DNA of 64,000 nt from the sequence record PZ402300.1; one strand, given 5' to 3'. The notes beneath the pieces are model-generated. The model saw only the letters and a program-made list of their open reading frames with translations. It made no database searches and was not told where the DNA came from. This document shows, piece after piece, positions 16,577 to 34,188 of the stretch. Both the position numbers and the translations under genes were made by a program. Position 1 is the stretch's first letter; each line of letters opens with the position of its first letter. This DNA is from a phage.

Positions 16577-19234
16577 ATGGGCTTATTCAGTGGGAAGACC
16601 AAAGTATACGTAGCATCCTCTGTCTATAACATGGCAGGGGATATACATAAACGTCCTAACTATATGAAGACCGTAGTTATTGGGAACATCATTTCCAATA
16701 CAGGATTCACTATGGCAGATACTATCTCTGATAGTTATCTGAATGGGCCTGGTATACGTATGCGACTGTTCTCCAGCTGGAGTAAGAACCACTATGATTC
16801 AGAAGTTGGTATGGCTGGTTCTTCATTGGGTGTACTAGCTAAGATTGACCCTACTGTAATAGAGGGTCAAATTACACCACCTGCTGGAGAGTCTGTCTAT
16901 GTTCAGGCAGCAGAGATTGGCTTTGCTGACTTTGAACAATGGTGTGACCAGTATCTTTATGAGAATGCCCCAAGTCGAATCATGGAACGATTCGATATAG
17001 ACATTAACGAAGATACCAATGAAATTACTATGACCTCCCTGGATGGAGGTTCTACTATTAAATTCACACCTACTAACTTTGAACCAGGTGCTTTGTATCT
17101 CTATGCTGATTACTCTTTCTATAAGTCTCCTACTACCAATCCACCAGTAGTAGGACCGACTACTGTCTATGATGATGAGGATGATTTACCATCCACTTTG
17201 CTATGGACTACCGTCTCAAGTGATACGACGGCTAATACAACCAATCTTACTAAGACCATACAGACTCATTCTGTTTACTCTGATGGTAGACCAGATGAAG
17301 ATAGTACTGTCACCGAACCAAGTGTGGATAACTGGAATTCCTACGTTAAGGTCTACCGTAGAGGATTCACTGAGAAACCTGATGATGTAACTGTAGTTGT
17401 ATCTGACAGGGTAATGACCCATAAAAAGTTTGGTGAGGTTCAATCCAGTACTACTGTAACTACTAATGTAGTTGATATAGGTGGTGGTGTTACTCGTACT
17501 GATACAATTACTACAACCACAGAGACACTGGTTCGTAAGTATTCATCCCAGACTACTCGTACCGATACTGAGATGACTTCTGTTGGTACACCTAAGATGC
17601 TTATTTATAAACATAACTCTGGTAATGTTGCACTGGATTCACTGTTTGAGACTGAGGCTACTGACAACCGATTCTACCCATTCATTCCAATAAGGAATGA
17701 TAAACGATGGGTAGAGAATGACCCAATCTACCCACACTGTAAGAAAGCTCTTTATAAAGCTACAGGTGGTAAGCTCAATGATGTAGTAACTGAGCTTAAG
17801 AAGAATAAGGATATAGGAGATATCCAATACATTTATGGCACATTCGGTGTATCTCTTAATTCCCCTGAGGATACTGCTAAGGAATACATCTATCGTTTCT
17901 TTCAGATGGCTACTGAAGCATTCCCACCTGACCCAACCTATCCGACTTTGGAAGCAGTGATTGCAGGTTATCAGGCAGCAAACGATGCAGTCGATGCATA
18001 CGTAAAATGGTGGAACAAGCCAGTAGGACAGCTTGCTGGAACACCTCCACCACCACTACCTGATTACCCAGTTATCCCCAAGAGGGAATTTAGAGTACAT
18101 AGTAGTAAACACTACAAGTACGATATGACCATTGGTTGGAACTACGTATCAGAAACCACACATTCTGGTAAAGCATGGTCTGGTGCTAAGCAGGGGCAAC
18201 TTCGATCCAGATATGCTGGAGATATAACTCTTACTCGCAAGAACATGAGGACAGTTCCTGGCTCCGGTTCTGCTAAGAAACTGGAGGTAACATACGCATT
18301 CTATTCAATGCAAGAGTATGAGTTACTTTGGCAGGATGGTAATAATTCCTACCGTAAACTCAGAATACTGGGTCTAAACCACAACAATAGGGTATATAAG
18401 AATAAGTCTGTACACATTGATGTTGCCGGGGCAATGGGTGATGCAGAAGAGAGTGGGTTCATTATTCCACTGCACACTAACATCTACCGATCCATGTCAC
18501 TGGTTCGTAGTACCCAATTATCCACTGCTTGCTCCTACTTAGTGATGAACTCATATAAGAAGGTTAAGAAGAAATGGTATCAGACCGGGGCATTTAAAAT
18601 TGTTGTTGTTGTGGTTGCTGTGGTTATCTCTGTATTTACAGCTGGTGCTGGTGGTGCAGGCATACTTGGGGCATATGGTGCAGTTGGTGCATCTCTGGGT
18701 TTTGTCGGATTAGCTGCTGTGATAGTTGGTGCTGTAGCAAACGCTATTGCTGGAATGATTCTGGTATCTATTATCACTGAAGTATCCGCCTCAATGTTCG
18801 GGGATAAGTTGGGATTTATTATTGCAGCTATTGCTTCAATGGTAGCTATGAATGTTGGTACTGCTATGTCTACAGGTACATCCCTATCTACCCTGGCAAG
18901 TGAAATGATGAATGCACAAAACATCATGCAGCTCACCAGTTCAGTAGGTAATGGTATTAGCCAGTATATTAATGCATCTACGGCTGCTACTATTCAGAAA
19001 GCAGAGAAAGTAATGCAGCAGTACAATACTGATATGATGGCAATCAATAAGCAGTATGAAGAAATGTTTGGTACTGCTGGACAGGGTGTAATTGACCCAA
19101 TGCAATTCGTGTCAATGGAGTCACTGGATTCATTCTTATCACGTACTCTCATGACTGGTTCAGATATAGCTGACCTGTCCCTAGATATGATAGGTAACTA
19201 CTCTGACATGACCCTTAATACTGACCTTGTTTAA
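16577..19234 (+). CDS. large virion protein with long hydrophobic Gly/Ala-rich segment (possible internal/ejection protein)
   Basis: 885 aa; residues ~670-760 are strongly hydrophobic and Gly/Ala/Val-rich. Confidence 0.45.
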   Translation: MGLFSGKTKVYVASSVYNMAGDIHKRPNYMKTVVIGNIISNTGFTMADTISDSYLNGPGIRMRLFSSWSKNHYDSEVGMAGSSLGVLAKIDPTVIEGQITPPAGESVYVQAAEIGFADFEQWCDQYLYENAPSRIMERFDIDINEDTNEITMTSLDGGSTIKFTPTNFEPGALYLYADYSFYKSPTTNPPVVGPTTVYDDEDDLPSTLLWTTVSSDTTANTTNLTKTIQTHSVYSDGRPDEDSTVTEPSVDNWNSYVKVYRRGFTEKPDDVTVVVSDRVMTHKKFGEVQSSTTVTTNVVDIGGGVTRTDTITTTTETLVRKYSSQTTRTDTEMTSVGTPKMLIYKHNSGNVALDSLFETEATDNRFYPFIPIRNDKRWVENDPIYPHCKKALYKATGGKLNDVVTELKKNKDIGDIQYIYGTFGVSLNSPEDTAKEYIYRFFQMATEAFPPDPTYPTLEAVIAGYQAANDAVDAYVKWWNKPVGQLAGTPPPPLPDYPVIPKREFRVHSSKHYKYDMTIGWNYVSETTHSGKAWSGAKQGQLRSRYAGDITLTRKNMRTVPGSGSAKKLEVTYAFYSMQEYELLWQDGNNSYRKLRILGLNHNNRVYKNKSVHIDVAGAMGDAEESGFIIPLHTNIYRSMSLVRSTQLSTACSYLVMNSYKKVKKKWYQTGAFKIVVVVVAVVISVFTAGAGGAGILGAYGAVGASLGFVGLAAVIVGAVANAIAGMILVSIITEVSASMFGDKLGFIIAAIASMVAMNVGTAMSTGTSLSTLASEMMNAQNIMQLTSSVGNGISQYINASTAATIQKAEKVMQQYNTDMMAINKQYEEMFGTAGQGVIDPMQFVSMESLDSFLSRTLMTGSDIADLSLDMIGNYSDMTLNTDLV

Positions 19235-19247
19235 CAGGAGAATCCCC

Positions 19248-19691
19248 ATGGATTTGTCATTCTTAACAGGCAACCAAACCCCACAGCCAGCTGCTATGTC
19301 TTGGATGTCTAATAACAATCAAAACTTTAATACCCCGGCTATGAACTATAATCCCGGTGCAGCTATTGGTATGGGTACGAATTTTGGAGCATCTGCCCCT
19401 AATACTTTCATGTCTGGCTCGGCTAGTCAGTTAGGCATGAACATACCTACCTTCCAATTAGGACTGGGTGCACTTGGTTCATTAGCTAATATCTACAGTG
19501 GTTTCCAGGCTAATAAGTTAGCCAAAGACCAGTTGAACTTTGCTAAGAGTGTTACTAACACTAACCTGAATAATCAGATTAAGTCTTATAACACTGCACT
19601 GGAAGACCGTGCTCGTAGCCGTGCTGTTGCAGAGAACCGTGACCAATCTACTGCTGATGCTTACATTGCAGCTAATAAATTAACCCGTTAA
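19248..19691 (+). CDS. hypothetical virion protein
   Basis: ORF with AGGAGA RBS; track start 19227 is TTG. Confidence 0.4.
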   Translation: MDLSFLTGNQTPQPAAMSWMSNNNQNFNTPAMNYNPGAAIGMGTNFGASAPNTFMSGSASQLGMNIPTFQLGLGALGSLANIYSGFQANKLAKDQLNFAKSVTNTNLNNQIKSYNTALEDRARSRAVAENRDQSTADAYIAANKLTR

Positions 19692-19703
19692 TAGGAAACC
19701 ATC

Positions 19704-21650
19704 ATGGCTCAAATTACATGGCGTAATGTTGATGCACCCAACTTCTCTGGAGTTGGTGACAGCATTCGCACATTTGGCAATATGATTGGTAACGCCACCT
19801 CCGGCTTAAGTGATGCACTGGGTAATTTCCAGAACGCTGCCAAGCAGGAGGCTGGCAATGCCGTCATGATGAATGCTATGCAGTATCAAGACCCTACTGA
19901 GTATCGTAATGCTCTGGCATCCGGTGCATTATTTCAGGGGGTTGATCCTTCATTGGTAAGCCAGCGTACTCTACAGAATCTGGATGAGCGAGCAGGTACT
20001 CTTCTGACTCAACAAGGTCAACAGGGAATCAATGACTACAATGCTTATCGTTTTGGTCGTTTACAGAATACTGACTCTGCATTAGATAATGCATCTCCAG
20101 CTATTCGTTTACTGTCTGAGGCTTATCAGTCTGGTGACCAGAACCGTATTAATGCTGCATTGAGTCAGACTCGTGAGGCACTGTCTGCACTTCCTGCTGA
20201 CCAACAACTGGATATGTTGAGTCGTCTGCAAGGTCAGGGTGGTCAGGCCATTAACCAAGCACAGAACCGTTTTGATTTGGGTGTGGCTCAGCGTAATGAT
20301 GCTGATTCACAAGCTGCATCCGGTATATTGACAGATATTTTCCGCAGTGCTTCTACGCCTATGGATGCTCTTACACTGGCAGAATCTGCCATGAAGAATG
20401 CTTCTCCTGGTGTACGTGCTGCAATTATGCGAGGTGTGAACCAGAGATTCCCAGGTACTTATGCCACGTCTGCTTCTGGCTCTGCTCCTGGTACTGCCGG
20501 TACTCGTTCTGGTTCTCCTTATGATGTAACCTACACTTTTGCTGCTACTGATAAGCCCATTACCGAGATGACTCTCGGTGAGGTTACTAATCATCAACAA
20601 ACTATGATTAATAACCCATCGCAAGGTCATTCTCCTGTAGGTGCATTCCAGATTAATAAAGCCACTCTGGAAGACTATGCTCCTAAGGTGCTTGGTTCAG
20701 ATTGGCGTAATCAGCAAATGACTCCTGAAGTACAGGACAAAATAGCTGAAGCAATCTTCAATGACCGTAAGAGTGGTAACCTTTCTAAGACTTGGGCTGC
20801 ATTGCCTGACCTGGGTGTAGGTGGTTATAAGGATATGCCTTGGAGTGAAGCACGTCAGTTAATTGCACAGGCAGAAGTAGGTGCATCCCTTGAACAGTTA
20901 CAGACCCAGCAAGTAGTCTCAAACATGGCAGGCAATACAGTTGCTGCTCGTCAGTCTGAAGATAATACTGGAACCATTACTGCTAACTATGCTCGTGCAT
21001 TACGTGATAACTCTACCATTGGTGAAGTAGCAGACCGTCTTCTTAAGGATGCTTTTAAAGGTTCTGAGAAAGGATGGATGATTGCTCGATTGAATGATGT
21101 TATGCAGGAATCTGGGCAGTCTCCTGCTGTAGCTGCTGAGATTCTTAAGCAGTCTACTACTAACGTACCGGAAAGAATGATTAGTCGGGCACTTGATGCA
21201 CTTAACCCGTTCATCTCCAATGAAGGTGGTAATGGTATTCGTATTGATGATACCGTTGCCAGAGAACTAGCACGTTCAGTACGACGTGGGGAAGGTATTG
21301 AAGCTACTGCTCGTGATAATGTTCTTACTCAGGTACAGGGTAATATTGCTAATGCCCAGAACCAGGTAAACCAAGCAGAAGCTTTGCTTGCTGATACCCG
21401 TCGTCGTGTAGCTGCTGGACAAAGTGGACTTGCTGCTACTATCCCTGCTCGTGAAGCTGAGTTAGCAAGAGCACGTGCTGCACTGGATGCTGCTGTTAAT
21501 ACTGTGGTAGCTAACCAGGGAAATCTGGTTCCACAGAACTTCCGTTCTAATGCTTCAGTAGAACGTGAGCGTAGTCGTGAAGATGAAGAACGAGCTAAAC
21601 GTTATCGAAAATTGGCAGAGGGTTTACCTCCCTATATGCAACCTCGATAA
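19704..21650 (+). CDS. hypothetical virion protein, 648 aa
   Basis: ORF with AGGAA RBS; precedes virion RNA polymerase gene. Confidence 0.4.
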   Translation: MAQITWRNVDAPNFSGVGDSIRTFGNMIGNATSGLSDALGNFQNAAKQEAGNAVMMNAMQYQDPTEYRNALASGALFQGVDPSLVSQRTLQNLDERAGTLLTQQGQQGINDYNAYRFGRLQNTDSALDNASPAIRLLSEAYQSGDQNRINAALSQTREALSALPADQQLDMLSRLQGQGGQAINQAQNRFDLGVAQRNDADSQAASGILTDIFRSASTPMDALTLAESAMKNASPGVRAAIMRGVNQRFPGTYATSASGSAPGTAGTRSGSPYDVTYTFAATDKPITEMTLGEVTNHQQTMINNPSQGHSPVGAFQINKATLEDYAPKVLGSDWRNQQMTPEVQDKIAEAIFNDRKSGNLSKTWAALPDLGVGGYKDMPWSEARQLIAQAEVGASLEQLQTQQVVSNMAGNTVAARQSEDNTGTITANYARALRDNSTIGEVADRLLKDAFKGSEKGWMIARLNDVMQESGQSPAVAAEILKQSTTNVPERMISRALDALNPFISNEGGNGIRIDDTVARELARSVRRGEGIEATARDNVLTQVQGNIANAQNQVNQAEALLADTRRRVAAGQSGLAATIPAREAELARARAALDAAVNTVVANQGNLVPQNFRSNASVERERSREDEERAKRYRKLAEGLPPYMQPR

Positions 21651-21666
21651 AATCTTACATACTAAT

Positions 21667-21692
21667 AAAGCCCCATCCGGGGCTTTTCTCTT
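21667..21692 (+). terminator. rho-independent terminator
   Basis: agcccc-atcc-ggggct hairpin followed by TTTTCTCTT. Confidence 0.75.
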
Positions 21693-21753
21693 ACATTCAC
21701 TTACTGTACAGTGAATCTTCTTATACGATATAAGTTTGAACAGGAATCATGCT

Positions 21754-24700
21754 ATGTCAACATTTGACCGTCTGGCAGGTTTCGCAGACAGCATCACTAC
21801 TGCTAAGCAAGTCGATGTCTCTACTGCAACCTCTCGGAAACAAGCTGAACAAGGGCAAAGCCCTTTCCAACTAACCCCACAGAACGCTTACCAATTACAG
21901 GCAGGTCGTGCTGGTGACTTAGGTGCTGGTGCATTTGACCCAGGTTCTATTCAGGCAGATTTTACTAATGCCTCCCCCCTTGAAATCGTAAACAAATATG
22001 GCAATGAGCAGGGAATGGACATTCTCAATGCTCGTGTCAATGCAGCTAATGCTGTTCGTCGTGATTTAACTAAGAGTCGTACATATGGTGAAGCACTTGG
22101 TGATACCCTTTTTGGTGTTGGTCTTGGTGTTGCTAATACCCTTGGGGGCATTGCTGCTCTTGGCACAGGTTTGGTCAATGATAATGCCGGGGCATCCATT
22201 GCTTCCGGTCTTGACTGGTTAAACAAAGGTGTACACAACCTACAGTCTGATGCACTGAATGCTCGTCGTAATGTAGTACAGAACCAGAACGTAATATCTG
22301 CACAGGAAAATGAGAAACTCTATAAGCAGGATGTTGCTAAAGGGGAAAGTGAACTCGTTGCTTCTCTGTCTCGCATTGGTCGTGATGCTTACGATTCCGT
22401 TGCTAACACTTTATCCAATGGTATGGCTGCTACAGATGGTCTGGCTGAGGGTGTTGGTTCTCTGTTTACAGGTGGTCCATTAATTCGTGGTGTATCTGCA
22501 CTTGGTAAAGTAATGGTAGGTGGGGATAAAGCTGTTAAGGGTATTACCTTAGCTGCTGAATTAGGTTCACGTCCTGCACGTACTGCATTAGCTACTGGTC
22601 GTGTTGCTGCACCTGCTATGGCAATTGGTGGTATGGAAGCTGGTGGTGCATACCAACAGACTGCTAATGAAATTATGGAAATGCCATTCAGTGAACTGGC
22701 TGCTAAATCTTCTGTATACCAACAGCATATTAAAGACGGTCTGCCTCCTGAAGAAGCTCGTCGTCAGACTGCATCTGAAACGGGTATTACTGCTGCTGGT
22801 TTAACTGCTCCGATTGCTGCTCTTACTGGCCCATTAGTATCCAAGTTTGAACTTAACCCACTTAAGGTAGGTTCACTGGCTGGTGCTGGTTCTAATATGC
22901 TACGTGAGACTGTAGAAGAAGGTATTCAGTCTGGTACAAGTCAGTTTGCACAGAACAAGGCAATTCAGGGTAATGTAGATGCTAATCGTGACCTGCTTAA
23001 AGGTGTTGGTGAACAAACCGGGCTTGGTGCATTGTATGGCTTTGGCTCTGCTGGAGTTGCTCAAGCTCCTGGTGCAACTGTTAAGGCTGCTGGTGCTGCC
23101 GTTGGTCCTGCTGTACGTACTACCCTGGCTGGTGCTTCTCTGGCTGGTAAGGCACTAGCAAAAGTAGCTTCTCCTATTACTAACATCCTGGTTCAACGTG
23201 GAGAAGAAGTAGCTAAACGTAACGAACAAGCATCCCCTGTATCAGACGCTACAGTTAATGCTGCTGCACAAGAAGCTACTGCTCAGGCAGAACAAGCGCA
23301 AGCAACTGTACAGGAAGCAGTAGATGCAATGGACATTTCTCCAGAAGAGAAAGCTGCTGCTACCCAATATGCTGCTGACTTAACTCAGGTAATGAAGTTT
23401 GACCCAGTAGAACTGGAACAAGCTAGTCCTGCAATCCGTGAAGCTGTTTCTGGTTCCACTAACCGTGTTGAAGCTATTCAGAAGATGGCTGACTTGGTTA
23501 ATACTGCTGAAGACCCTAATGTTCAAATGGAAGCTGCAATCCAGATGTATGACAACATCATGTCTATGGATAGCTTCATTAACCGTGACCCGGGTGCATT
23601 AGCTAATCTGGAACAAGGTTCTCCTGCTGCTAATATTGTTGACCAGTTCTCTGGTCTGATGGCTAACGTTCAGAATACACCAAAGGTACTTCGTGCATTC
23701 CGTGCTATTCATTCTATGATTCAGGAACAGGCTGAAGCAGGTAAACTGAAAGCTACTGAGGAAGCCAATCAAGCTCAGGCAAACAATATTGCTATGGCTG
23801 CTGATATGTCTCCAGAAGTACTGGATGCAGATTCAGTGAACATGGTTCTGAAACATGCAAGTGAAGGTAAGATTACACTGGGGAATCGTCAGCGTGCTGC
23901 CCTGCAATCTGCTGCTGCTCTATTGCAAGGAGCACGAGAATTTGACGCTAAAGCAGAAGAACTAGGCTTACGTCCTCAAGACATTGTTAGTAAACAGATT
24001 AAAACCGACGAATCTCGTTCTAATGAAGGCCAGTACTCTGCGTTGCAACATGCTAAACGCATTCGTTCTGCGTACAACTCTGGTAACTTCGATTTGGCTT
24101 CCGCTTATCTCGACGACTTTATGAAGTTCGCCCAGCACATGCAGAATAAGGTCGGAGCGTTGAATGAGCATCTGATTTCTGGGAATGCGGATAAAAATAA
24201 GTCTGTTCATTATCAGGCTCTTACTCCCTCGCGTGAATGGGTACGTAGTCGTACTGGCCTCGGTGTCAATCCGTATGATACCAAGTCGGTTAAGTTTGCC
24301 CAGCAAGTAGGACTGGAGGCCAAGACCGTAGCTGATATTGCTAACGCACTTGCTACGGCTTACCCGGAGCTTAATGTTTCTCATGTGAAAGTTACCCCAT
24401 TGGATTCACGTCTGGACAAACCTGCTGCCCAGGTAGTTAAAGAGTTCCGTCAGGGCAATCTTGATGCTGCTCAATCCCAACAGACCAATGAACCAGTGAA
24501 TCAGGTTGATGAAACTCCTGTTACGAAACAGGAACCAGTTACCCCTACTGTACAGACTAAACCCTCTGTTAGTGAAGCTGTTAAAACAGAATCCACTATT
24601 AAAGAGTCTAAACCACAGTCTGTAAAAGAACCTGAGAACCAGTCTGAAAAACAGGATGTTACCCTCACTAATGAGGATACCACTCAGGAAGTGGCTGAAA

Positions 24701-27700
24701 CTAAAACAGAAATGGAAACAGTGTTCCCTGTCTATAACAATGAAAAGACACCGAACCAGTTCATTAAAGCATTTTCTCTACCAGAAGAACCTAAGTCTCG
24801 TACCATTGGTTCTGAGTCTCCTCTGACCGATGTTAAGAAAGCACTGTCTTCTGCTGCTCGTTTCGAAGCATTCACTCAAAAAGAAAATAACGCCCTCACA
24901 AGTGATGTGATTAAGCGTTATCAGGACTTATTTGATTTTGGTGAAATTCTGAAGACTACCCTGTCTGACCGTCTGGCTAAGTTCCTTGCTAATAAGAATG
25001 TTGGTAAACGTTTTGCAGAAGGTACTGAGGCTAACCGTTGGGTAGGTGGTAAGTTACTTAACATCGTAGAAAAAGATGGTGACACCTTTAAGTTCAATGA
25101 CCAGTTGTTAGAGACTGCTGTACTTGCTGGTCTGCAATGGCGATTAACTGCTACACAGAATGCTGCTGTTAAAGACATGAAAGACGTAGCTGCTATTACT
25201 GGTGTAGAAGCATCTCTGCTACCAGAAGGCATTTTGGCTGATTTCGAAAATGCTCAGACATTGGTTGAAGCTACTAACTCACTGGCTCAAAAGATTGAAT
25301 CTTATTGGGGACTTAACCGTAATGCTGATGCACCACTTGGTTATACCAAGGGTATCCCAGTGGCAATGGCTACAGAGATTCTATCTTCTTTTATTGAGAT
25401 GGGTGTAGTTAAAGAGTCTATGCTGGATGTGTCTGAGATTGACCCAGAATCTAAAAAGACTGTTGGTCTGTATACCATTGATAAGTTAGAGGATAATGAT
25501 GCCATTAATAATTTCCCTACTGCTATTGAGGAAGCTGTCCTTGTAGAACCAGCAGAGAAACTGTACCTAGGTGATGATATTCCTTCCGTGGCTCCTACTC
25601 AGTTACGTAACCCTGCTGTCCGTAATACTCCAGAACAGAAAGCTGCTCTTAAAGCAGAACAGGCTACTGAGTTCTTTGTACATACTCCAATGGTTCAGTT
25701 CTATGAGGCGTTAGGTAAAGACCGTATCCTCGAACTGATGGGTGCAGGTACTCTGGATAAAGATTTACTTAATAAGAACCATGCTAAATCTTTGGAAGGC
25801 AAGAATCGTTCAGTAGAGGATTCTTATAACCAATTGTTCTCTGTTATTGAACAGGTAAGAGCACAGAGTGAAGACATTTCCACTGTGCCTATTCACTATG
25901 CATACAATATGACTCGTGTTGGTCGTATGCAGATGTTAGGTAAATATACCCCCCAATCAGCTAAGCTGGTTCGTGAGGCTATTTTACCTACCAAAGCTAC
26001 TCTGGATTTATCGAACCAGAACAACGAAGATTTCTCTGGCTTCCAGCTTGGACTGGCTCAGGCATTAGGTATCAAAGTTCATAAAATGACTCGTGAAACT
26101 ATGTCAGAGGAACTTACCAAAGCTCTGGAAGGTAAGCTGAAACCTGCTGTAGATATGATGGTTGAGTTTGATAAGTCTGGATACTTACCTACTGATGCAG
26201 TGGATATCTTAAGAACATCTCTGGGTAATGATAAATCCTTTGTGGCTCTCATGGCTCTTATGGAATATGCCCGTTACCTTAACAGTGATGACCGTGCCAA
26301 CTTTAATACTCCTTTGTACGTTGAAGCCGATGGGGTAACCAACGGACCAATCAACGCAATGGTATTAATGACTGGTGGTAAGTTCACTCCAAACTGGATT
26401 AAGAATACTGCCAAAGGTGGTTTGTTCTTTGGTAAAGCTGGTAAGACTATGAATGAGCATCATACGCAGGATGACAGTGTTGACCTGTATGAAGCATCTA
26501 CAAATAGTCTGCAATTCTATCTGAATGAATTACGTAATACTTACAGTAAAAATATTCCAGTTATAAACCAGATGGACCATCTCCAGAAGTTAATGAACTT
26601 GTTCATTAAAGACTTCAATCTTAAGGAAGACGGTACTCTGGACCTGAAGCGTGGTATCGCTAAAAACCCACTTACCATTACCATCTATGGTTCTGGTGCT
26701 CGTGGTATTGCAGGCAAGATGGTAAGTGCAATTACTGATACCATCTATGAACGCTTAAGCGACGTTCTGAAAGCCCGTGCTGTTGACCCTAACATTCCCC
26801 CAGCTATGGCGATGTTTGGTAAGGAGGCTGCGTCTGAGGCTGATGCTCAGGCTATGCTGGATACCTTCCTTACTTCTATGAAAGCGTTGACTGGGAATAT
26901 TCCAGCTAAGCGTAAAGGTAAGTTATTCATTAAGGAAGTAGACGGTGTTCTGACTGGTAAGTTAGACCCCCAGGAGTTTACTGTATCTGGTAATGCTCTT
27001 AAGAACTTACAAGAGAATATGCTGCATTTCTTTGTTGAGCCAATGAGGCAAAGTATCCGGTTCACTGTTGGTGAGGGGTTGATGCACTCTACTGAGAATT
27101 TGCAGAAAGCTACCCAGATTCAATCTCTGGTATTGCAGGATATGTTCCAACAAGCAGTACAGGCTAAGCTGGCAGAAAAAGAAAAAGACCCAACATGGAA
27201 GAAGGGTGATTTCTTAACGCAGAAAGAATTGAATGAAATCCAGAATAGCTTAGCTCCACTGGCTCCAATGATTAAGACTGGTTCCCAGACTTTCTACATT
27301 GCTGGAAGTGAGAATACTGACGTTGCTAACCAAGTATTGGCTACCAACTTAGATGACCGTATGCGTGTGCCAATGAGTATCTATGCTCCTTCGCAGGCAG
27401 GTGTTGCAGGTATTCCCTTTATGACCATCGGTACTGGTGATGGCATGATGATGCAGACCCTTTCTACTATGAAAGGTGCTCCGAAGAATACCCTGAAAAT
27501 CTTTGATGGTATGAACATTGGTATCAATGACATTACTGATGCAAGTCGTAAAGCTAATGAGGCTGTATATACTTCCTGGCAGGGTAATCCTATTAAGAAT
27601 GTATATGAGTCTTTCTCTAAGTTTGTTAAGAATGTTGATTTAAATAAGCTGTCCGATTCAGCAATAGATGCTATTGCAAAGTCTGCTTTAGACTTTGAGC

Positions 27701-30700
27701 AACGTGCTCATATTGCCAGGGTAGATGGTGATAGAGATTATAAAATTTCTATGATTAGAGATTCTGGTATTGCATTAATTGAGCGTAACCTACGTAACAT
27801 TGCTTTGGGTGTAGATATTCGTCACAAGGTAATGGACCAGGTACAGGTCACTGTTGACCAGATGGCTGCTGTTGGTGCTCCTTATGTGAACAACGGTAAA
27901 ATCTCTCTGGAAGGTCTGACTATAGACCAGCAAGTAGCCAAGCTGAACGAACTGTTTGATGCTGAATTAAACAAGCGTCGTGATGCAGTACGTGCTGCTA
28001 AAGCGGAACCAACGAAGGCAGAACCAGTGAAGGAAGTGCCGGTGAAAGTTGTACCAGCTATGGAGAAGGTAGGTCGTGTACTGAAGTCTGGTGTACGCCT
28101 GTTGTCTAATGCTGCTATTACTAAGCTGGCTAAAGAGATGTCTCCTGAACAGCAAGCAGTATTGAAAGAAATACAGAAATCTCTTGCTGCTAAAGACTAC
28201 AAGGTTGTTTACGGTACACCTTCTCAACTGGATGCCTACGCTATTGAGAAGAACATTACTCGCCCAGCACCAGAAGATATTGAAGCTGCTGAAGCAGGTA
28301 ATGCATATGGCTGGACTAACTTTGAAGATAAGACCATCTACTTAGTTACCCCTTCCTTAGAGACTTTGGTTCATGAATTAGTACATGCTTCTACTTTTGA
28401 ATCTGTACTGGCTCACTACGAAGGCACCCCTAATGAAGCTGTCCAGAACATTGAAGACCTGATGAACCAGTTCCGTGCTTTGGATGTTAAGGATGAATCC
28501 CCGGTAGTACGTGAAGCATATGCCGATGCACTGAATACCATTAATGGTCATTTGTCTAATGGCTTTATTGAACCAGCAATGGCTAAAGCTGCTGCACTGA
28601 ATGAGTACATGGCTTGGGGTTTAACCAACCGTGAACTTATTAGTAAGCAGAAGAAAACCACTGCACTTAAGACTATGGTTCAGGCTGTATATGAAGCAAT
28701 CAAACGTTTGGTATTCGGACGTAAGAAAGCTCCAGCTAATGCAGATGATATGTTCTCGGGCTTATTGTTTAACTCTGCTGTAGTTATGCGTGGGCAGGCT
28801 CCTACTGCTGCTGTAGCCAAAGACACTACCCTGTTCCATAACAAAGCATATGGTGACAATACTCGTCTGGAAGAGTTAGGGAAAACCTTCGATAAGTTGA
28901 TTACTGACTACATTGGTTCAGAACCAGTACAGCAAGTAATTCGTAAAGGTAAGTTTTCCGATGCAGTAGTGAATGCAACTAAAGTAACTCGTGATGTTCA
29001 GGCTCATGGCTTCACCATGAATATGCAGGAACAGCGTCTCTTTACTAACATTGTTGCTGCTCTCGCTACCGAGGCTGCTATTAACCCTGCTGCTCTGGCT
29101 CGTGCACAGGAATACTACACGCATGTTACTAAGAATCTGACTGTTGAAGCATTTATGTCTGACCCTGATAGTACTAACCCTGCTGACCGTTACTATGCAC
29201 AGCAGAAGTTCGATACCATCATGGGTGCTAACAACATTGAGTTTGATGCACAAGGTCGTTCTTCCTTACTGCCTACCTTTGTTGGTCTGGCAATGGTAAG
29301 CGAAGAGGTACGTAAGGTACTGGCTTATATTCCTGTTATGAAAGCAGATAAGAAATCAGGCAATACCGTTGATGCAATGCTGACTAATATCGGTACTGCT
29401 GCAATGGCTAGTTTGAATGCTCGTGTAGCAGGCGATACTAAAGCCACTAACGTACAAGAAGGTATGGATGCACTGGCTCAGACAATCATGCAGACCAGCC
29501 TTAATGCAGAGTCCTTCTATGATTCCGTTGCTACTCCTACCGGTAATGCTATTGACCGTGCTAACCAGTATCTGGTGGATTCTATTGATGTACTGTCTAC
29601 CCGTGCTTTAGAAGGTGCTCGTGAAGTTGCAGCTAATACCAAGAACCCATTGGTTAAAGGTGCTGCTCATGCTGCACAACTGGTAGCTGCTATTGCTACA
29701 GAGAAGAATGGTTCAATCGTAGCTGAGGGTGTTATGGCTGCAATGAACCAAGGTAAAGTATGGCAACCTTTCCATGACCTGGTTAATGACATAATCGGTC
29801 GTACTAAGAGCAATGCTTCTGTATACGATTTGATTAAAGCAGTACGTGCACAGGTACAAGCTGACCGTCAACAGTTCCGTGAACACCTACCTACCACTAT
29901 CGCATCCAAATTCAGCCGTAAGCTGACTAATGATGAGTGGAAAGCAATGCATACCGGTATGGGTAAAACTGACTTAGCTGTTCTGCGTGACACTATGTCT
30001 CTGGCTGAAATCCGTGACCTACTGACTGACCAAAAGATTGTTGACCGTGAGGTTAATAAACTGGAAGCAGATTTGCAGAAACAAGCAGGACGTAACTGGC
30101 CTCTGATTAATCGTAAATCTAAGCAACTGGCTCAGTACATGATTAATGGTACAGTCGGTAATAACCTGCTGCGTAATGCTACTGCAATTTCACGTTTGCT
30201 GGGTGAACGTAAGACTACACGTTCTGTTGTAGATGTAGCTCAGCTGGATAAACTGATTACTTTATATGCACTGGAAGCAATGAATAAGACTGACCGTGAG
30301 ATGTTATCTTCACTGGCTCAGACAGAAATTGAAGGTATGGACTTTGCTACATCTTACCTGGTTGGCCAGCGTAAAGATGAAATGGCTAAAGTCAAGTCTG
30401 ATAGTCGTGCAACTCTGAACCAGTACAAAGGGTATATTCCTGGTGAGACTAAACAGGGTGTTAACCTGATTGTTGCTGAAGATAGTCAGTTTGTTGATTT
30501 GATTGAGAAATCCTATGTACGTCTGGGGACTTATCAAGGTAGCTCTGCTAATCGTGGTCCAGCACGTAGTTACTACTTTGCACCAGTACAGGCACAGGCT
30601 CCATTCTCACAGGGTATCCTACAGAACGTTCGCAATACTGCTGGTGGTGTAGACCTCGGCACAGGCTTTACGATGGGAACCATGGTAGCCGGTCGTATTA

Positions 30701-32175
30701 CAGACAAACCTTCCGTAGACCGTATCACTAAAGCACTGGCTCGTGGTGAACGTGGTAATGAACCACTGCTGCCTGTATATGATGCTAATGGTAATGTGGT
30801 TGCTTACGAGCAATCCATTGACCCTAACATGCTGAAGCACATCGAGGGTGAGAACCATCTTGCTAGTGCAATCGGTGTATGGCGAGGTCGTCAGGTAGAA
30901 GAGGCTAAGGCTCAGCGTTTCAACGATATGTTGATTGAGAACCTGCATAGCATGTATGAGAACGACATTAAGATGTCTGCCTCTAATAAGTCCCAGTACG
31001 TTAACCTTCTTGGTTCTAAACTGGACCCAGTAACTGCTGATGCTCTTAAGCTGATGAACAGTGAAACACGTCAGAAAGCAGAAAGTCTGTTTGGCCCTGA
31101 TGAACTGTGGGTACGTCGTGACATGCTTAATGATGCTTTGGGTTATCGTGCAGCTTCTGTTGGTGATGCCTGGTCTGGTAATTCTCGATGGTCCCCAGAA
31201 ACACTGGATACCTTCAAGAAAGCTATGCTAGGTGTATTTGGTAACCGTGCTTATAAGTATGTAATGGGTGGTGAGAACCTGGTTCAGAACTTAGTTAAAG
31301 AAGCTAAAACCCTGATTGTAGTTAAGTCAGTGGTTGTACCTGCTGTTAACTTCTTAGCTAACCTTTACCAGATGGTTGCTCGTGGTGTACCTGTTAAGAA
31401 CATTGCTAAGAGCATTCCACAGAAGACTGCTGAGATTAACCAGTACCTGAAATCTCGTCTGCGTCAGGTAGATGCAGAAGCAGAATTACGTGCAGCTACG
31501 AATCCGAACCAGATTCGTAAACTTAAGGCTGAGATTCAGTCCATCACGGATAGTCATAAGCGTTTGAGTATCTGGCCTCTGTTAGAAGCTGGTGAGTTCT
31601 CTTCGATTGCAGATGCTGGTATTGGACGTGATGATATTCTGATTACTGAAGGTAAACTTCACGAATACATGGAAAAGCTGGCTGATAAGTTGCCTAAGTC
31701 TGTACGTAACGCAGGTCGTTATGCTCTTATCACTAAGGATACTGCTCTTTTCCAGGGTATCCAGAAGACGGTTGAGTACTCTGACTTTATTGCTAAAGCA
31801 ATCATCTATGATGAACTGACTCAGCGTAAAGGTAAGACTCGTGAAGAAGCACTTGGACGTGTAACGGAAGAGTTCATTAACTATGACCGTCTGCCAGGTC
31901 GCTTCCGTGGGTATATGGAAAGTGTTGGTCTTATGTGGTTCTACAACTTTAAGATTCGTTCTGCAAAAGTTGCAGTGTCCATGATTCGTAACAACCCAGT
32001 ACACGCTGCTATGGCTATGCTGGCCCCAACTCCTACCATGTTTGGTAACGTTGGTCTGCCTATTCAGGACAACATCTTTAGTATTGCTGCACAGGGCAAT
32101 CTCGGTTACTCATTCGGTTTCGGACAAGGCTTACGTGCTCATACCCTGAACCCATGGCTCAACCTCACTAACTAA
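21754..32175 (+). CDS. virion-encapsidated RNA polymerase (N4 vRNAP-like), ~3470 aa
   Basis: Giant ORF; internal T7-like motifs PLYVEADGVTNG (motif A-like), KRGIAKNPLTITIYGSG (motif B-like), FDGMN; AGGAA RBS before ATG 21754. Confidence 0.85.
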   Translation: MSTFDRLAGFADSITTAKQVDVSTATSRKQAEQGQSPFQLTPQNAYQLQAGRAGDLGAGAFDPGSIQADFTNASPLEIVNKYGNEQGMDILNARVNAANAVRRDLTKSRTYGEALGDTLFGVGLGVANTLGGIAALGTGLVNDNAGASIASGLDWLNKGVHNLQSDALNARRNVVQNQNVISAQENEKLYKQDVAKGESELVASLSRIGRDAYDSVANTLSNGMAATDGLAEGVGSLFTGGPLIRGVSALGKVMVGGDKAVKGITLAAELGSRPARTALATGRVAAPAMAIGGMEAGGAYQQTANEIMEMPFSELAAKSSVYQQHIKDGLPPEEARRQTASETGITAAGLTAPIAALTGPLVSKFELNPLKVGSLAGAGSNMLRETVEEGIQSGTSQFAQNKAIQGNVDANRDLLKGVGEQTGLGALYGFGSAGVAQAPGATVKAAGAAVGPAVRTTLAGASLAGKALAKVASPITNILVQRGEEVAKRNEQASPVSDATVNAAAQEATAQAEQAQATVQEAVDAMDISPEEKAAATQYAADLTQVMKFDPVELEQASPAIREAVSGSTNRVEAIQKMADLVNTAEDPNVQMEAAIQMYDNIMSMDSFINRDPGALANLEQGSPAANIVDQFSGLMANVQNTPKVLRAFRAIHSMIQEQAEAGKLKATEEANQAQANNIAMAADMSPEVLDADSVNMVLKHASEGKITLGNRQRAALQSAAALLQGAREFDAKAEELGLRPQDIVSKQIKTDESRSNEGQYSALQHAKRIRSAYNSGNFDLASAYLDDFMKFAQHMQNKVGALNEHLISGNADKNKSVHYQALTPSREWVRSRTGLGVNPYDTKSVKFAQQVGLEAKTVADIANALATAYPELNVSHVKVTPLDSRLDKPAAQVVKEFRQGNLDAAQSQQTNEPVNQVDETPVTKQEPVTPTVQTKPSVSEAVKTESTIKESKPQSVKEPENQSEKQDVTLTNEDTTQEVAETKTEMETVFPVYNNEKTPNQFIKAFSLPEEPKSRTIGSESPLTDVKKALSSAARFEAFTQKENNALTSDVIKRYQDLFDFGEILKTTLSDRLAKFLANKNVGKRFAEGTEANRWVGGKLLNIVEKDGDTFKFNDQLLETAVLAGLQWRLTATQNAAVKDMKDVAAITGVEASLLPEGILADFENAQTLVEATNSLAQKIESYWGLNRNADAPLGYTKGIPVAMATEILSSFIEMGVVKESMLDVSEIDPESKKTVGLYTIDKLEDNDAINNFPTAIEEAVLVEPAEKLYLGDDIPSVAPTQLRNPAVRNTPEQKAALKAEQATEFFVHTPMVQFYEALGKDRILELMGAGTLDKDLLNKNHAKSLEGKNRSVEDSYNQLFSVIEQVRAQSEDISTVPIHYAYNMTRVGRMQMLGKYTPQSAKLVREAILPTKATLDLSNQNNEDFSGFQLGLAQALGIKVHKMTRETMSEELTKALEGKLKPAVDMMVEFDKSGYLPTDAVDILRTSLGNDKSFVALMALMEYARYLNSDDRANFNTPLYVEADGVTNGPINAMVLMTGGKFTPNWIKNTAKGGLFFGKAGKTMNEHHTQDDSVDLYEASTNSLQFYLNELRNTYSKNIPVINQMDHLQKLMNLFIKDFNLKEDGTLDLKRGIAKNPLTITIYGSGARGIAGKMVSAITDTIYERLSDVLKARAVDPNIPPAMAMFGKEAASEADAQAMLDTFLTSMKALTGNIPAKRKGKLFIKEVDGVLTGKLDPQEFTVSGNALKNLQENMLHFFVEPMRQSIRFTVGEGLMHSTENLQKATQIQSLVLQDMFQQAVQAKLAEKEKDPTWKKGDFLTQKELNEIQNSLAPLAPMIKTGSQTFYIAGSENTDVANQVLATNLDDRMRVPMSIYAPSQAGVAGIPFMTIGTGDGMMMQTLSTMKGAPKNTLKIFDGMNIGINDITDASRKANEAVYTSWQGNPIKNVYESFSKFVKNVDLNKLSDSAIDAIAKSALDFEQRAHIARVDGDRDYKISMIRDSGIALIERNLRNIALGVDIRHKVMDQVQVTVDQMAAVGAPYVNNGKISLEGLTIDQQVAKLNELFDAELNKRRDAVRAAKAEPTKAEPVKEVPVKVVPAMEKVGRVLKSGVRLLSNAAITKLAKEMSPEQQAVLKEIQKSLAAKDYKVVYGTPSQLDAYAIEKNITRPAPEDIEAAEAGNAYGWTNFEDKTIYLVTPSLETLVHELVHASTFESVLAHYEGTPNEAVQNIEDLMNQFRALDVKDESPVVREAYADALNTINGHLSNGFIEPAMAKAAALNEYMAWGLTNRELISKQKKTTALKTMVQAVYEAIKRLVFGRKKAPANADDMFSGLLFNSAVVMRGQAPTAAVAKDTTLFHNKAYGDNTRLEELGKTFDKLITDYIGSEPVQQVIRKGKFSDAVVNATKVTRDVQAHGFTMNMQEQRLFTNIVAALATEAAINPAALARAQEYYTHVTKNLTVEAFMSDPDSTNPADRYYAQQKFDTIMGANNIEFDAQGRSSLLPTFVGLAMVSEEVRKVLAYIPVMKADKKSGNTVDAMLTNIGTAAMASLNARVAGDTKATNVQEGMDALAQTIMQTSLNAESFYDSVATPTGNAIDRANQYLVDSIDVLSTRALEGAREVAANTKNPLVKGAAHAAQLVAAIATEKNGSIVAEGVMAAMNQGKVWQPFHDLVNDIIGRTKSNASVYDLIKAVRAQVQADRQQFREHLPTTIASKFSRKLTNDEWKAMHTGMGKTDLAVLRDTMSLAEIRDLLTDQKIVDREVNKLEADLQKQAGRNWPLINRKSKQLAQYMINGTVGNNLLRNATAISRLLGERKTTRSVVDVAQLDKLITLYALEAMNKTDREMLSSLAQTEIEGMDFATSYLVGQRKDEMAKVKSDSRATLNQYKGYIPGETKQGVNLIVAEDSQFVDLIEKSYVRLGTYQGSSANRGPARSYYFAPVQAQAPFSQGILQNVRNTAGGVDLGTGFTMGTMVAGRITDKPSVDRITKALARGERGNEPLLPVYDANGNVVAYEQSIDPNMLKHIEGENHLASAIGVWRGRQVEEAKAQRFNDMLIENLHSMYENDIKMSASNKSQYVNLLGSKLDPVTADALKLMNSETRQKAESLFGPDELWVRRDMLNDALGYRAASVGDAWSGNSRWSPETLDTFKKAMLGVFGNRAYKYVMGGENLVQNLVKEAKTLIVVKSVVVPAVNFLANLYQMVARGVPVKNIAKSIPQKTAEINQYLKSRLRQVDAEAELRAATNPNQIRKLKAEIQSITDSHKRLSIWPLLEAGEFSSIADAGIGRDDILITEGKLHEYMEKLADKLPKSVRNAGRYALITKDTALFQGIQKTVEYSDFIAKAIIYDELTQRKGKTREEALGRVTEEFINYDRLPGRFRGYMESVGLMWFYNFKIRSAKVAVSMIRNNPVHAAMAMLAPTPTMFGNVGLPIQDNIFSIAAQGNLGYSFGFGQGLRAHTLNPWLNLTN

Positions 32176-32177: not shown

Positions 32178-32206
32178 GAAAAAGCCCCTCTAATGAGGGG
32201 CTTTAC
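32178..32206. terminator. bidirectional terminator between convergent late and early blocks
   Basis: gcccctc-taat-gaggggc hairpin flanked by A-run on one side and T-run on the other. Confidence 0.7.
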
Positions 32207-34186: not shown

Positions 34187-34188
34187 AT

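What the first reader, a model, noticed from the sequence alone, without database searches (positions are those of the whole stretch)
21754..32175. Giant virion RNA polymerase ORF
A ~3470-aa ORF with weak T7-like polymerase motifs in its central part is the hallmark of N4-like phages, and its position at the end of the structural module fits that architecture. It anchors the taxonomic interpretation of the whole window.
Basis: partly seen in the sequence, partly recalled or inferred. Interest (0 to 1): 0.4.

Follow-up and report, generated by a model that had tools for sequence, protein, structure and literature searches.

The report
N4-type virion RNA polymerase gene
This 10.4-kb gene encodes the giant RNA polymerase that N4-like phages pack into the virion and inject with their DNA; it is a 97%-identical copy of already annotated phage genes, so it is correctly identified but ordinary.

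Summary
The observation and the interpretation both hold. One uninterrupted ORF runs from ATG 21754 to the stop at 32173-32175 (3,473 aa, + strand). It aligns end to end with coliphage N4 gp50, the virion RNA polymerase (vRNAP; 5,156 bits, 68% identity). It is 97% identical to the annotated vRNAPs of Gamaleyavirus phages St11Ph5 and ZQ2. Residues 997-2082 match the crystallised mini-vRNAP. All tested catalytic residues are conserved (R1391, D1526, K1637, Y1645, D1918), as are the N4 promoter-hairpin contacts R1086 and W1096. Four vRNAP-specific Pfam domains hit, including the plug. The gene is the last of the late operon, after gp53-, gp52- and gp51-like genes. It also shares two published family traits: no cysteines and a C-terminal HExxH motif. 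The only structural difference from the closest relatives is the lack of a ~132-aa insertion in the linker before the polymerase domain. N4 and other Gamaleyaviruses also lack it. Verdict: a known enzyme in a known genus, of low interest. Side observations: the HExxH module is homologous to part of phiKMV-type internal virion protein gp37, and the RNAPII gene at the window end is split by intron/endonuclease insertions.

The parts
21754..32175 (+). vRNAP gene (N4 gp50 orthologue), 3,473 aa, about 378 kDa, no cysteine
   Evidence: ORF and translation. End-to-end match to N4 gp50 PDB chains at 5,156 bits. PHROG 2206 at 4,104 bits. 97% aa identity to St11Ph5 and ZQ2 and 68% to N4. No Rfam family inside the gene. 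Antisense ORFs of 102-139 aa have no PHROG hit.
21742..21746 (+). Shine-Dalgarno-like AGGAA, 7 nt before the ATG
   Evidence: Read directly from the sequence.
21667..21692 (+). G+C-rich hairpin (AAAGCCCC-ATCC-GGGGCTTT) with a T-rich tail just after the gp51-like stop; terminator-like. A second 7-bp hairpin lies at 21695-21716.
   Evidence: Sequence. RNA fold of 21651-21753 gives -20.2 kcal/mol, z = -2.5. The consensus terminator scan did not call it, so its function is inferred.
21754..24456 (+). N-terminal domain (aa 1-901, equivalent to N4 1-906). Ala/Gly-rich, with hydrophobic segments at aa 115-142, 237-255 and 343-365. Proposed membrane-association/ejection domain.
   Evidence: Mapped from the N4 alignment, 60.7% identity. 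Hydropathy peaks fall at the same positions in N4. N4 NTD inserts into nanodiscs and has predicted membrane helices at 224-278 (PMC13434306).
24457..24705 (+). Linker 1 (aa 902-984), low-complexity and T/E/V/Q/P/K-rich. Lacks the ~132-aa insertion carried by ZQ2 and St11Ph5 (by gene length, also EC1-UPM and pSb-1).
   Evidence: Composition. Indel located at aa 970-994. Short form shared with PW8, PGN829.1, CU10EC and N4. Not a DNA tandem repeat. The N4 linker 907-1006 is described as a flexible tether.
24706..27996 (+). Polymerase domain (aa 985-2081, the mini-vRNAP equivalent)
   Evidence: phmmer aligns query 997-2082 to 2PO4, 3C2P and 3Q0A. 72.8% identity to N4 and 96.5% to St11Ph5. Pfam vRNAP_dom_2 at 1294-1410, N4_RNAP_helical at 1586-1802 and vRNAP_dom at 1884-2038.
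25009..25041 (+). Promoter-hairpin -11G recognition segment (R1086 and W1096, equal to N4 mini-vRNAP R119 and W129)
   Evidence: Both residues are conserved in identical local sequence. Their role is described in PMC13492108. They are conserved only in the closest clades (window, N4, Axy24) among 9 vRNAPs.
25912..25926 (+). T/DxxGR motif (TRVGR, R1391)
   Evidence: Identical to N4. R is invariant in 9 vRNAPs. Aligns to T7 DWRGR.
26029..26277 (+). Plug module (aa 1426-1508), the N4-specific autoinhibitory insertion
   Evidence: Pfam PF21624 vRNAP_plug, E 1.4e-25. Its function in N4 is described.
26323..26349 (+). Motif A (EADGVTNGP, catalytic D1526)
   Evidence: Identical to N4. D is invariant in 9 vRNAPs. 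hhalign pairs it with T7 FDGSCSG.
26650..26697 (+). Motif B (RGIAKNPLTITIYGSG; K1637, Y1645)
   Evidence: Identical to N4. K is invariant, and Y is present in 8 of 9. BLASTP pairs it with T7 RSVTKRSVMTLAYGS.
27493..27516 (+). Motif C (LKIFDGMN, catalytic D1918)
   Evidence: Identical to N4. D is invariant in 9 vRNAPs.
27997..28068 (+). Linker 2 (aa 2082-2105), V/K/P/A/E-rich
   Evidence: Mapped from N4 2102-2123. Composition.
28069..28800 (+). C-terminal subdomain C1 (aa 2106-2349) with HELVH at aa 2207-2211 (nt 28372-28386) and invariant E2284 (nt 28603-28605)
   Evidence: 63% identity to N4 C1. HExxH is present in 8 of 9 vRNAPs. In the 8-sequence C1 alignment (the 9 minus BUCT194) the invariant residues cluster on E..HE..H..T and E2284/N2292. 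The motif is noted for N4. The module is homologous to LUZ19/phiKMV-type gp37 residues 417-558.
28801..32172 (+). C-terminal subdomain C2 (aa 2350-3473), alpha-helical. In N4 the CTD packs on palm and fingers and holds the polymerase autoinhibited. The CTD is needed for encapsidation. In DEV it binds the ejection protein gp72, which that paper matches to N4 gp51.
   Evidence: 71.6% identity to N4. Functions taken from PMC13434306, PMC13492108 and PMC11445570.
32181..32204 (.). Bidirectional terminator hairpin between the vRNAP stop and the convergent - strand genes
   Evidence: Terminator scan finds it on both strands. Folds give -19.9 and -20.5 kcal/mol, z = -5.4 and -5.9.
16577..21650 (+). 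Upstream partners: gp53-like (16577-19234), gp52-like (19227-19691) and gp51-like (19704-21650)
   Evidence: PHROG 2220, 2646 and 6126. Same order as in N4 and LUZ7. The gp51-like and gp52-like proteins have no cysteine.

Best explanation
This is the virion-encapsidated, single-chain DNA-dependent RNA polymerase of an N4-like coliphage of genus Gamaleyavirus, orthologous to N4 gp50.

Inferred from homology with the experimentally studied N4 and DEV proteins:
- A few copies are packaged in the capsid, which requires the C-terminal domain.
- On infection they are expelled through the tail after the small ejection proteins (gp52-like and gp51-like).
- The N-terminal domain anchors the protein at the inner membrane through hydrophobic segments, and a flexible linker tethers the polymerase.
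- The polymerase is held inactive by the C-terminal domain, the plug and the motif B loop.
- It becomes active on hairpin-form promoters extruded from supercoiled phage DNA. It reads the -11 G with R1086 and W1096 and catalyses RNA synthesis with D1526 and D1918 (two-metal site), K1637, Y1645 and R1391.
- It thereby transcribes the early genes independently of host RNA polymerase and helps pull the genome in.

Shown here: the intact gene, full-length homology, conservation of every tested catalytic and promoter-contact residue, the family-specific domains, the synteny, and the absence of cysteine.

Inferred: packaging, ejection and activity.
For: - Full-length homology: N4 gp50 PDB chains at 5,156 bits over 1-3472; mini-vRNAP chains match 997-2082.
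- Family models: four vRNAP-specific Pfam domains including the plug; PHROG 2206 at 4,104 bits.
- Close relatives: 94% nt and 97% aa identity to annotated Gamaleyavirus vRNAPs.
- Residues: R1391, D1526, K1637, Y1645, D1918, R1086 and W1096 are identical to N4 in identical local sequence. R, D, K and D are invariant across 9 vRNAPs down to 20% identity.
- Synteny: gp53/gp52/gp51-like genes lie upstream, and the gene is the last of the late operon as in N4 and 7 distant schitoviruses.
- Cysteine: 0 in 3,473 residues, against 29.5 expected from the other ORFs. This matches the published family trait (PMC11445570).
- HExxH is conserved.
- Cognate promoters: hairpin promoters of the N4 type (CCWWAA-N3-GCGRAGC) occur three times on the template strand of the early region of the close relative nithesis.
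- Mechanism: taken from PMC13434306 and PMC13492108.
Against: - There is no direct evidence from this sequence for packaging, ejection or activity.
- The window holds no N4-type early promoter: no exact match to CCWWAA-N3-GCGRAGC, and only chance-level near matches. The early region appears to lie beyond position 64000.
- Pfam's T7-type RNA_pol model does not hit, and NCBIfam has no model for the family.
- The exact protein sequence is not in the 15-billion-protein collection, so it is a new allele.
Confidence: 0.97

Rival explanations
1. The gene is a decaying or polymerase-dead copy that serves only as a structural or ejection protein. In this reading the central domain is retained as a scaffold and early transcription is done by another enzyme.
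For: Only the absence of N4-type promoters in the window, plus the fact that activity was not tested.
Against: The 10.4-kb ORF is uninterrupted. All catalytic residues and promoter-contact residues are identical to N4. The polymerase domain is the most conserved large block, at 96.5% identity to St11Ph5 and 73% to N4. The missing promoters are explained by the window ending inside the RNAPII gene, before the early region. The close relative nithesis carries three such promoters.
Confidence: 0.02
2. It is an ordinary T7-like phage RNA polymerase, made after infection and not packaged, fused to unrelated large domains.
For: The T/DxxGR, A, B and C motifs are colinear with T7 RNAP.
Against: There is no significant match to T7 RNAP (BLASTP E 0.17; hhalign probability 7%) or to Pfam RNA_pol. 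Homology to N4 gp50 covers all 3,473 residues, including the NTD and CTD. The gene sits in the late structural/ejection operon. The protein is cysteine-free like the other ejection proteins. The window carries a separate N4 RNAPII-type polymerase gene at 61064-63999.
Confidence: 0.01

Closest known systems
Escherichia phage N4 gp50 (virion RNA polymerase; PDB 2PO4, 3C2P, 3Q0A, 9PNQ-9PNW, 11GP and others)
   Same: Colinear over the full length at 68% aa identity (NTD 61%, Pol 73%, C1 63%, C2 72%). Same motifs, plug, -11G contacts, HExxH, cysteine-free composition, linker architecture and gene neighbourhood.
   Different: 27 residues shorter, with small indels in the linker and C1. Belongs to a different genus (Gamaleyavirus versus Enquatrovirus).
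Gamaleyavirus vRNAPs (St11Ph5 gp50, ZQ2, EC1-UPM, pSb-1; short-linker forms PW8, CU10EC, PGN829.1)
   Same: 94% nt identity to EC1-UPM, ZQ2, pSb-1 and St11Ph5. 97% aa identity to St11Ph5 and ZQ2, and 91-94% aa to PW8, CU10EC and PGN829.1. Same position in the genome.
   Different: The most similar relatives carry a ~132-aa insertion in linker 1 that is absent here. The short linker matches PW8 and N4. The exact sequence is not in the public protein collection.
Pseudomonas phage DEV gp71 / LUZ7 gp73 (distant schitovirus vRNAPs)
   Same: Same three-part architecture, catalytic residues, HExxH, cysteine-free composition, and position after gp52/gp51-like genes.
   Different: Only about 20% identity. 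The -11G contact residues are not conserved, which suggests a different promoter specificity.
T7 RNA polymerase (single-subunit RNAP family)
   Same: Colinear T/DxxGR, A, B and C motifs. The right-hand fold is established for N4 by crystallography.
   Different: No significant overall sequence similarity. Four times larger, packaged and ejected, and uses hairpin promoters on single-stranded DNA rather than duplex promoters.
phiKMV-type internal virion protein gp37 (LUZ19, LKD16; PDB 9SFN chain G), largest ejectosome component of Phikmvvirus
   Same: A ~140-aa module, HExxH...(N/K)E(F/L)(M/V)AWGLT, is shared with vRNAP C1. The vRNAP C1 profile hits 9SFN_G at E 6e-9. hhalign gives 84% probability, E 7e-6. 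The reciprocal tblastn hits schitovirus vRNAPs at about 1e-8. Both are ejected proteins.
   Different: Homology is detected only for this module. gp37 has no polymerase domain and is annotated with an endolysin domain. Pairwise BLASTP with the window protein is not significant.

Membership tests
Schitoviridae virion RNA polymerase (N4 gp50 family) | Single giant ORF of about 3,100-3,700 aa | tested here: met
   3,473 aa. Nine family members range from 3,068 to 3,679 aa.
Schitoviridae virion RNA polymerase (N4 gp50 family) | End-to-end homology to N4 gp50, including NTD and CTD | tested here: met
   phmmer aligns 1-3472 to 1-3499 at 5,156 bits. PHROG 2206 covers 25-3472.
Schitoviridae virion RNA polymerase (N4 gp50 family) | Central polymerase domain with T/DxxGR, A, B and C motifs and catalytic R, D, K, Y, D | tested here: met
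   R1391, D1526, K1637, Y1645 and D1918 are identical to N4. R, D, K and D are invariant in 9 vRNAPs.
Schitoviridae virion RNA polymerase (N4 gp50 family) | vRNAP-specific modules (plug insertion, helical domain) | tested here: met
   Pfam PF21624, PF21894, PF21867 and PF21769 all score far above their cut-offs.
Schitoviridae virion RNA polymerase (N4 gp50 family) | N4-type hairpin promoter readout (R119 and W129 contacts to -11G) | tested here: met
   R1086 and W1096 are conserved.
Schitoviridae virion RNA polymerase (N4 gp50 family) | Cognate hairpin promoters upstream of early genes in the same genome | tested here: inconclusive
   None in the window. The window ends inside the RNAPII gene, before the early region. 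Three exact CCWWAA-N3-GCGRAGC sites occur on the template strand in N4 and in the relative nithesis.
Schitoviridae virion RNA polymerase (N4 gp50 family) | N-terminal domain with hydrophobic, membrane-associating segments | tested here: met
   Kyte-Doolittle peaks at aa 115-142, 237-255 and 343-365, at the same positions as in N4. Membrane insertion itself was not tested.
Schitoviridae virion RNA polymerase (N4 gp50 family) | Suppression of cysteine in the ejection operon | tested here: met
   0 Cys in the vRNAP, gp51-like and gp52-like proteins, against 0.85% in the other ORFs. 9 of 9 vRNAPs are Cys-free. The trait is published in PMC11445570.
Schitoviridae virion RNA polymerase (N4 gp50 family) | Last gene of the late operon after gp53/gp52/gp51 homologues, convergent with the replication module | tested here: met
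   Same arrangement in N4 and 7 other genera.
Schitoviridae virion RNA polymerase (N4 gp50 family) | Physically packaged in the virion and ejected; transcribes single-stranded hairpin templates | not testable with these tools
   Needs virion proteomics and in vitro transcription.
T7-like single-subunit RNA polymerase (Pfam PF00940) | Significant sequence match to the family model or to T7 RNAP | tested here: not met
   No PF00940 hit at E <= 1. BLASTP against T7 RNAP gives best E 0.17. hhalign gives E 0.0048 but probability 7%. The relationship rests on motif order and on the published N4 structures.
Genus Gamaleyavirus (Schitoviridae, Enquatrovirinae) | High nucleotide identity to genus members across the genome | tested here: met
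   92-94% identity over 76-100% of three segments covering about 47 kb of the window. Identity is below 95% in each segment, so it may be a separate species. Whole-genome identity was not computed.
Zincin-type metallopeptidase (HExxH) | HExxH plus a third metal ligand, membership of a peptidase family, and bound metal or activity | tested here: inconclusive
   HELVH at 2207-2211 and invariant E2284. Pfam gives only sub-threshold SprT-like (E 0.049) and Peptidase_M91 (E 0.034) hits. The single-sequence AF2 model was too poor to search with (pLDDT 58.7).

The most novel reading that the evidence does not exclude
The HExxH module of the C-terminal subdomain C1 (aa ~2201-2347) may be a functional metal-binding, zincin-like unit. 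Within C1 it holds nearly all residues that are invariant across eight diverse schitovirus vRNAPs. It is also homologous to a segment of the phiKMV-type ejectosome protein gp37. This would suggest that the giant vRNAP arose by inserting a T7-like polymerase into a gp37/gp16-like ejection protein, and that the module has a conserved, possibly enzymatic, role during ejection. I did not find this link in the three structural papers I read or in one full-text search. It is a property of the whole family, not of this window.
Probability: 0.2. Interest if true: 0.45.

Novelty: already known. Interest (0 to 1): 0.1.

Why it matters
It fixes the identity of the window: a Gamaleyavirus, that is an N4-like coliphage whose early transcription does not depend on host RNA polymerase. 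It also allows the domain and residue map from the 2026 full-length N4 structures to be transferred to this allele with confidence. Beyond annotation it adds little, because the enzyme, its architecture, its cysteine-free composition and its HExxH motif are all published. One practical point for curators: several GenBank records label this gene 'DNA polymerase', 'hypothetical protein' or 'gram positive anchor domain protein', or split it into three ORFs.

Tried and rejected
- NCBIfam scan: no model hits.
- Pfam: no T7-type RNA_pol hit.
- Exact-sequence look-up in the 15-billion-protein collection: absent.
- vRNAP promoters in the window, searched as the P2 hairpin with mismatches, the GCGRAGC core, and the extended CCWWAA-N3-GCGRAGC pattern: chance level or below. 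I concluded the early region lies outside the window, not that promoters are missing.
- Antisense ORFs inside the gene (102-139 aa): no PHROG hits, and their sizes are within the range expected by chance.
- Tandem repeats in the low-complexity linker: none of note.
- Rfam across 1-32300: nothing, so there is no intron in the vRNAP gene.
- Single-sequence AlphaFold2 model of C1: pLDDT 58.7, so it was not used for fold search.
- Pfam on eight C1 domains: only sub-threshold HExxH-family hits.
- Cysteine-free composition: considered as a possible new observation, but it is already published.
- The three large-database protein searches and the representative-library search were not used, because close annotated relatives and solved structures already settled the question.
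Full report
**Observation.** A single ORF occupies 21754-32175 on the + strand. It starts at ATG 21754, preceded by AGGAA at 21742-21746, ends with the stop at 32173-32175, and has 3,473 codons. The mechanical ORF list begins 18 nt earlier at a TTG, but the ATG-initiated N-terminus aligns with residue 1 of N4 gp50. Such an ORF cannot be chance. The per-codon stop probability from the base composition is 0.058, so log10 P is about -90. The longest stop-free run in 100 shuffles of the window averaged 156 codons (maximum 245), against 3,486 observed. Five antisense ORFs of 102-139 aa inside the gene are within that chance range and have no PHROG match. No Rfam family, and so no intron, lies in 1-32300.

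**Identity.** A phmmer search against all PDB chains returns only N4 'Virion DNA-directed RNA polymerase'. The full-length chains (3,500 aa; 11GP, 9PNQ/R/T/V/W) align over query 1-3472 at 5,156 bits. The crystallised mini-vRNAP chains (2PO4, 3C2P, 3Q0A) align to query 997-2082. Pfam finds four vRNAP-specific domains: vRNAP_dom_2 at 1294-1410, the plug at 1426-1508, N4_RNAP_helical at 1586-1802, and vRNAP_dom at 1884-2038. PHROG 2206 'virion RNA polymerase' scores 4,104 bits. Megablast against 50,697 phage records gives 85 hits, and the listed hits are all N4-like phages. The best are about 94% nt identical over the whole gene: EC1-UPM, ZQ2, pSb-1 and St11Ph5, genus Gamaleyavirus. At the protein level the window is 97% identical to St11Ph5 and ZQ2, 94% to PW8, 93% to CU10EC, 91% to PGN829.1 and 68% to N4. 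The exact sequence is not in the 15-billion-protein collection, so this is a new allele of a known gene.

**Anatomy.** I mapped the published N4 domain limits (PMC13434306 and PMC13492108) through the alignment.

| Part | Window residues | Identity to N4 |
|---|---|---|
| NTD | 1-901 | 61% |
| Linker 1 | 902-984 | 66% |
| Pol | 985-2081 | 73% |
| Linker 2 | 2082-2105 | 48% |
| CTD-C1 | 2106-2349 | 63% |
| CTD-C2 | 2350-3473 | 72% |

- The residues shown by mutagenesis and crystallography to matter in N4 are all present in identical local sequence. These are R1391 (T/DxxGR), D1526 (motif A), K1637 and Y1645 (motif B), D1918 (motif C), and the -11G promoter contacts R1086 and W1096.
- In an alignment of nine vRNAPs from eight further genera, down to 20% identity, R1391, D1526, K1637 and D1918 are invariant. 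Y1645 is present in 8 of 9.
- R1086 and W1096 are conserved only in N4 and the next clade (Axy24). This fits a shared N4-type promoter specificity.
- The NTD has hydrophobic segments at 115-142, 237-255 and 343-365, at the same places as in N4. The N4 NTD inserts into nanodiscs.

**Relation to T7.** BLASTP of the Pol domain against T7 RNAP is not significant (best E 0.17). Yet the top HSP is IHYAYNMTRVGR against IWFPYNMDWRGR (T/DxxGR), and another HSP pairs RGIAKNPLTITIYGSG with RSVTKRSVMTLAYGS (motif B). A family profile aligns T/DxxGR through motif A to T7 residues 412-575 with E 0.0048 but only 7% probability. Pfam's T7-type model does not hit. Membership of the T7-like superfamily therefore rests on motif order and on the published N4 structures, not on sequence statistics obtained here.

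**Context.**
- Upstream on the same strand lie the portal, major head protein, gp54-like, gp53-like (16577-19234), gp52-like (19227-19691) and gp51-like (19704-21650) genes.
- A G+C-rich hairpin with a T-rich tail (21667-21692) lies between the gp51-like gene and the vRNAP gene.
- A strong bidirectional terminator (32181-32204) separates the vRNAP stop from convergent - strand genes. These lead into the SSB, primase and DNA polymerase genes.
- N4 has the same order, and so do Axy24, Zuri, ort11, DS-1410Ws-06, FSL SP-058, LUZ7 and BUCT194.
- Two other window segments are 92-94% identical to Gamaleyavirus genomes over 76-86% of their length.

The taxonomic reading is therefore sound and can be narrowed to Schitoviridae, Enquatrovirinae, Gamaleyavirus.

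**Mechanism (inferred by orthology).** About four copies are packaged, which requires the CTD. After receptor binding, the small ejection proteins gp52 and gp51 build the conduit through the envelope. The vRNAP follows as flexibly linked 'beads on a string'. The NTD stays at the inner membrane, and linker 1 tethers the Pol-CTD unit. The CTD, the plug and the motif B loop keep the active site closed until hairpin promoters appear. These hairpins are extruded from negatively supercoiled DNA with host gyrase and SSB. Early genes are then transcribed, starting with GTP, and transcription helps draw in the genome. None of these steps was tested here.

**Promoters.** The cognate promoters could be checked only indirectly.
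- In N4, the pattern CCWWAA-N3-GCGRAGC occurs exactly three times in the first 9 kb. All three sites are on the template strand, upstream of gp1, gp2 and gp15.
- The Gamaleyavirus nithesis has three such sites on the template strand of its early region.
- The window has none, only chance-level near matches.
- The window ends inside the RNAPII large-subunit gene, before the early region would begin.

**What differs from the nearest relatives.** St11Ph5 and ZQ2 carry about 132 extra residues in linker 1, after window residue 970. EC1-UPM and pSb-1 have genes of the same long length. The window, N4, PW8, PGN829.1 and CU10EC lack this insertion. The insertion is not a DNA repeat expansion. Both forms already exist in GenBank, so this is not new. 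It does show that the tether tolerates an extra module.

**Family traits re-found.** The protein has no cysteine, against 29.5 expected from the 0.85% frequency in the other ORFs (Poisson P about 1e-13). There are 431 out-of-frame TGT/TGC triplets in the gene but none in frame. The gp51-like and gp52-like proteins are also Cys-free, and all nine vRNAPs compared are Cys-free. This trait is published for 191 schitoviruses, with the periplasm-transit rationale (PMC11445570). The HExxH motif in C1 (HELVH, 2207-2211) is also published.

**A possible addition: the C1 module and gp37.** Across eight diverse vRNAPs (the nine minus BUCT194), the only invariant C1 residues are G2186, Y2196, E2203, H2207, E2208, H2211, T2214, E2284 and N2292. 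That is the motif plus a Glu 73 residues downstream.
- A profile of C1 hits PDB 9SFN chain G at E 6e-9, in addition to N4 itself.
- The matched 139-residue stretch of that chain is 100% identical to the phiKMV-type internal virion protein gp37 of LUZ19 and LKD16.
- Reciprocal tblastn of the gp37 fragment hits schitovirus vRNAPs at about 1e-8.
- hhalign of the family profile against LUZ19 gp37 gives 84% probability and E 7e-6, aligning window 2201-2347 with gp37 417-558.
- Pairwise BLASTP is not significant, and Pfam gives only sub-threshold SprT-like and M91 hits.
- I did not find this link in the three structural papers I read or in one full-text search.

This is a family-level lead, not a property of this window.

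**Verdict.** The finding is correct and ordinary: a close orthologue of a well-characterised enzyme in a described genus. Novelty is 'already known' and interest is 0.1.

Noticed in passing
window 61064-63999 (- strand): The N4 RNAPII large-subunit (gp16-like) gene is in three pieces. N4 gp16 aa 19-156 maps to 63999-63589 and runs off the window end, aa 142-342 maps to 62823-62218, and aa 344-404 maps to 61246-61064. The gap 62217-61247 holds a group I intron (Rfam RF00028, 61983-62226, 92.8 bits) and an HNH endonuclease ORF (61278-61922). The gap 63588-62824 holds an endonuclease VII/HNH-like ORF (62963-63523) and a sub-threshold group I intron hit (62875-63147, 36 bits, E 7e-7). Many relatives lack these inserts, since megablast coverage is only 76-80% in 5-8 pieces.
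   Followed up: partly
window 28354-28794 (aa ~2201-2347 of the vRNAP); L018 (LUZ19) gp37 aa 417-558: The HExxH module of vRNAP subdomain C1 is homologous to a segment of the phiKMV-type internal virion (ejectosome) protein gp37, solved as PDB 9SFN chain G. The C1 profile hits it at E 6e-9, hhalign gives 84% probability, and reciprocal tblastn gives about 1e-8. I did not find this in the papers I read.
   Followed up: partly
window 24661-24735 (aa 970-994); L001 (ZQ2) and L008 (St11Ph5): There is a length polymorphism in linker 1. St11Ph5 and ZQ2 carry a ~132-aa non-repetitive insertion between the NTD and the polymerase domain; EC1-UPM and pSb-1 have genes of the same long length. The window, PW8, PGN829.1, CU10EC and N4 lack it. 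The nature of the inserted module was not examined.
   Followed up: partly
window 33470-33625 (- strand) and the ORF-poor stretch about 33200-35400: Two adjacent tRNA genes sit here: tRNA-Ile(AAT) at 33470-33544, and a second at 33550-33625. ARAGORN cannot assign an anticodon to the second, but Rfam scores it as tRNA (42 bits). They lie in about 2 kb without convincing ORFs between the gp48/49-like genes and the gp47-like gene.
   Followed up: no
L004 (N4) 93-108, 562-577, 4551-4566; L005 (nithesis) 4539-4554, 9365-9380, 10178-10193: The pattern CCWWAA-N3-GCGRAGC (5-bp stem, GRA loop, +1 C eleven nt from the loop centre) picks out exactly three template-strand sites in the early region of N4 and of a Gamaleyavirus, and nothing in 16 other loci. 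The window has no exact match, so its early promoters lie beyond position 64000.
   Followed up: yes
window 19227-32175: The three ejection-operon proteins (gp52-like, gp51-like and the vRNAP; 4,275 residues in total) contain no cysteine, against 0.85% in the other ORFs. The vRNAP gene has 431 out-of-frame TGT/TGC triplets and none in frame. This is already published as a family trait.
   Followed up: yes
GenBank records listed: Orthologues of this gene are mislabelled in several records. HK2, PD205, U1G and PBM-2 call it 'DNA polymerase', and ST4 does likewise. ECBP1 (JX415535) calls it 'gram positive anchor domain protein', CU10EC calls it 'hypothetical protein', and pSb-1 (KF620435) splits it into three hypothetical proteins.
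   Followed up: no
window 21667-21716: A terminator-like hairpin and a second 7-bp hairpin lie in the 103-nt spacer between the gp51-like gene and the vRNAP gene. They might lower vRNAP expression relative to the upstream structural genes, since only about four copies are needed per virion. This is speculative. The consensus terminator scan did not call the site.
   Followed up: partly
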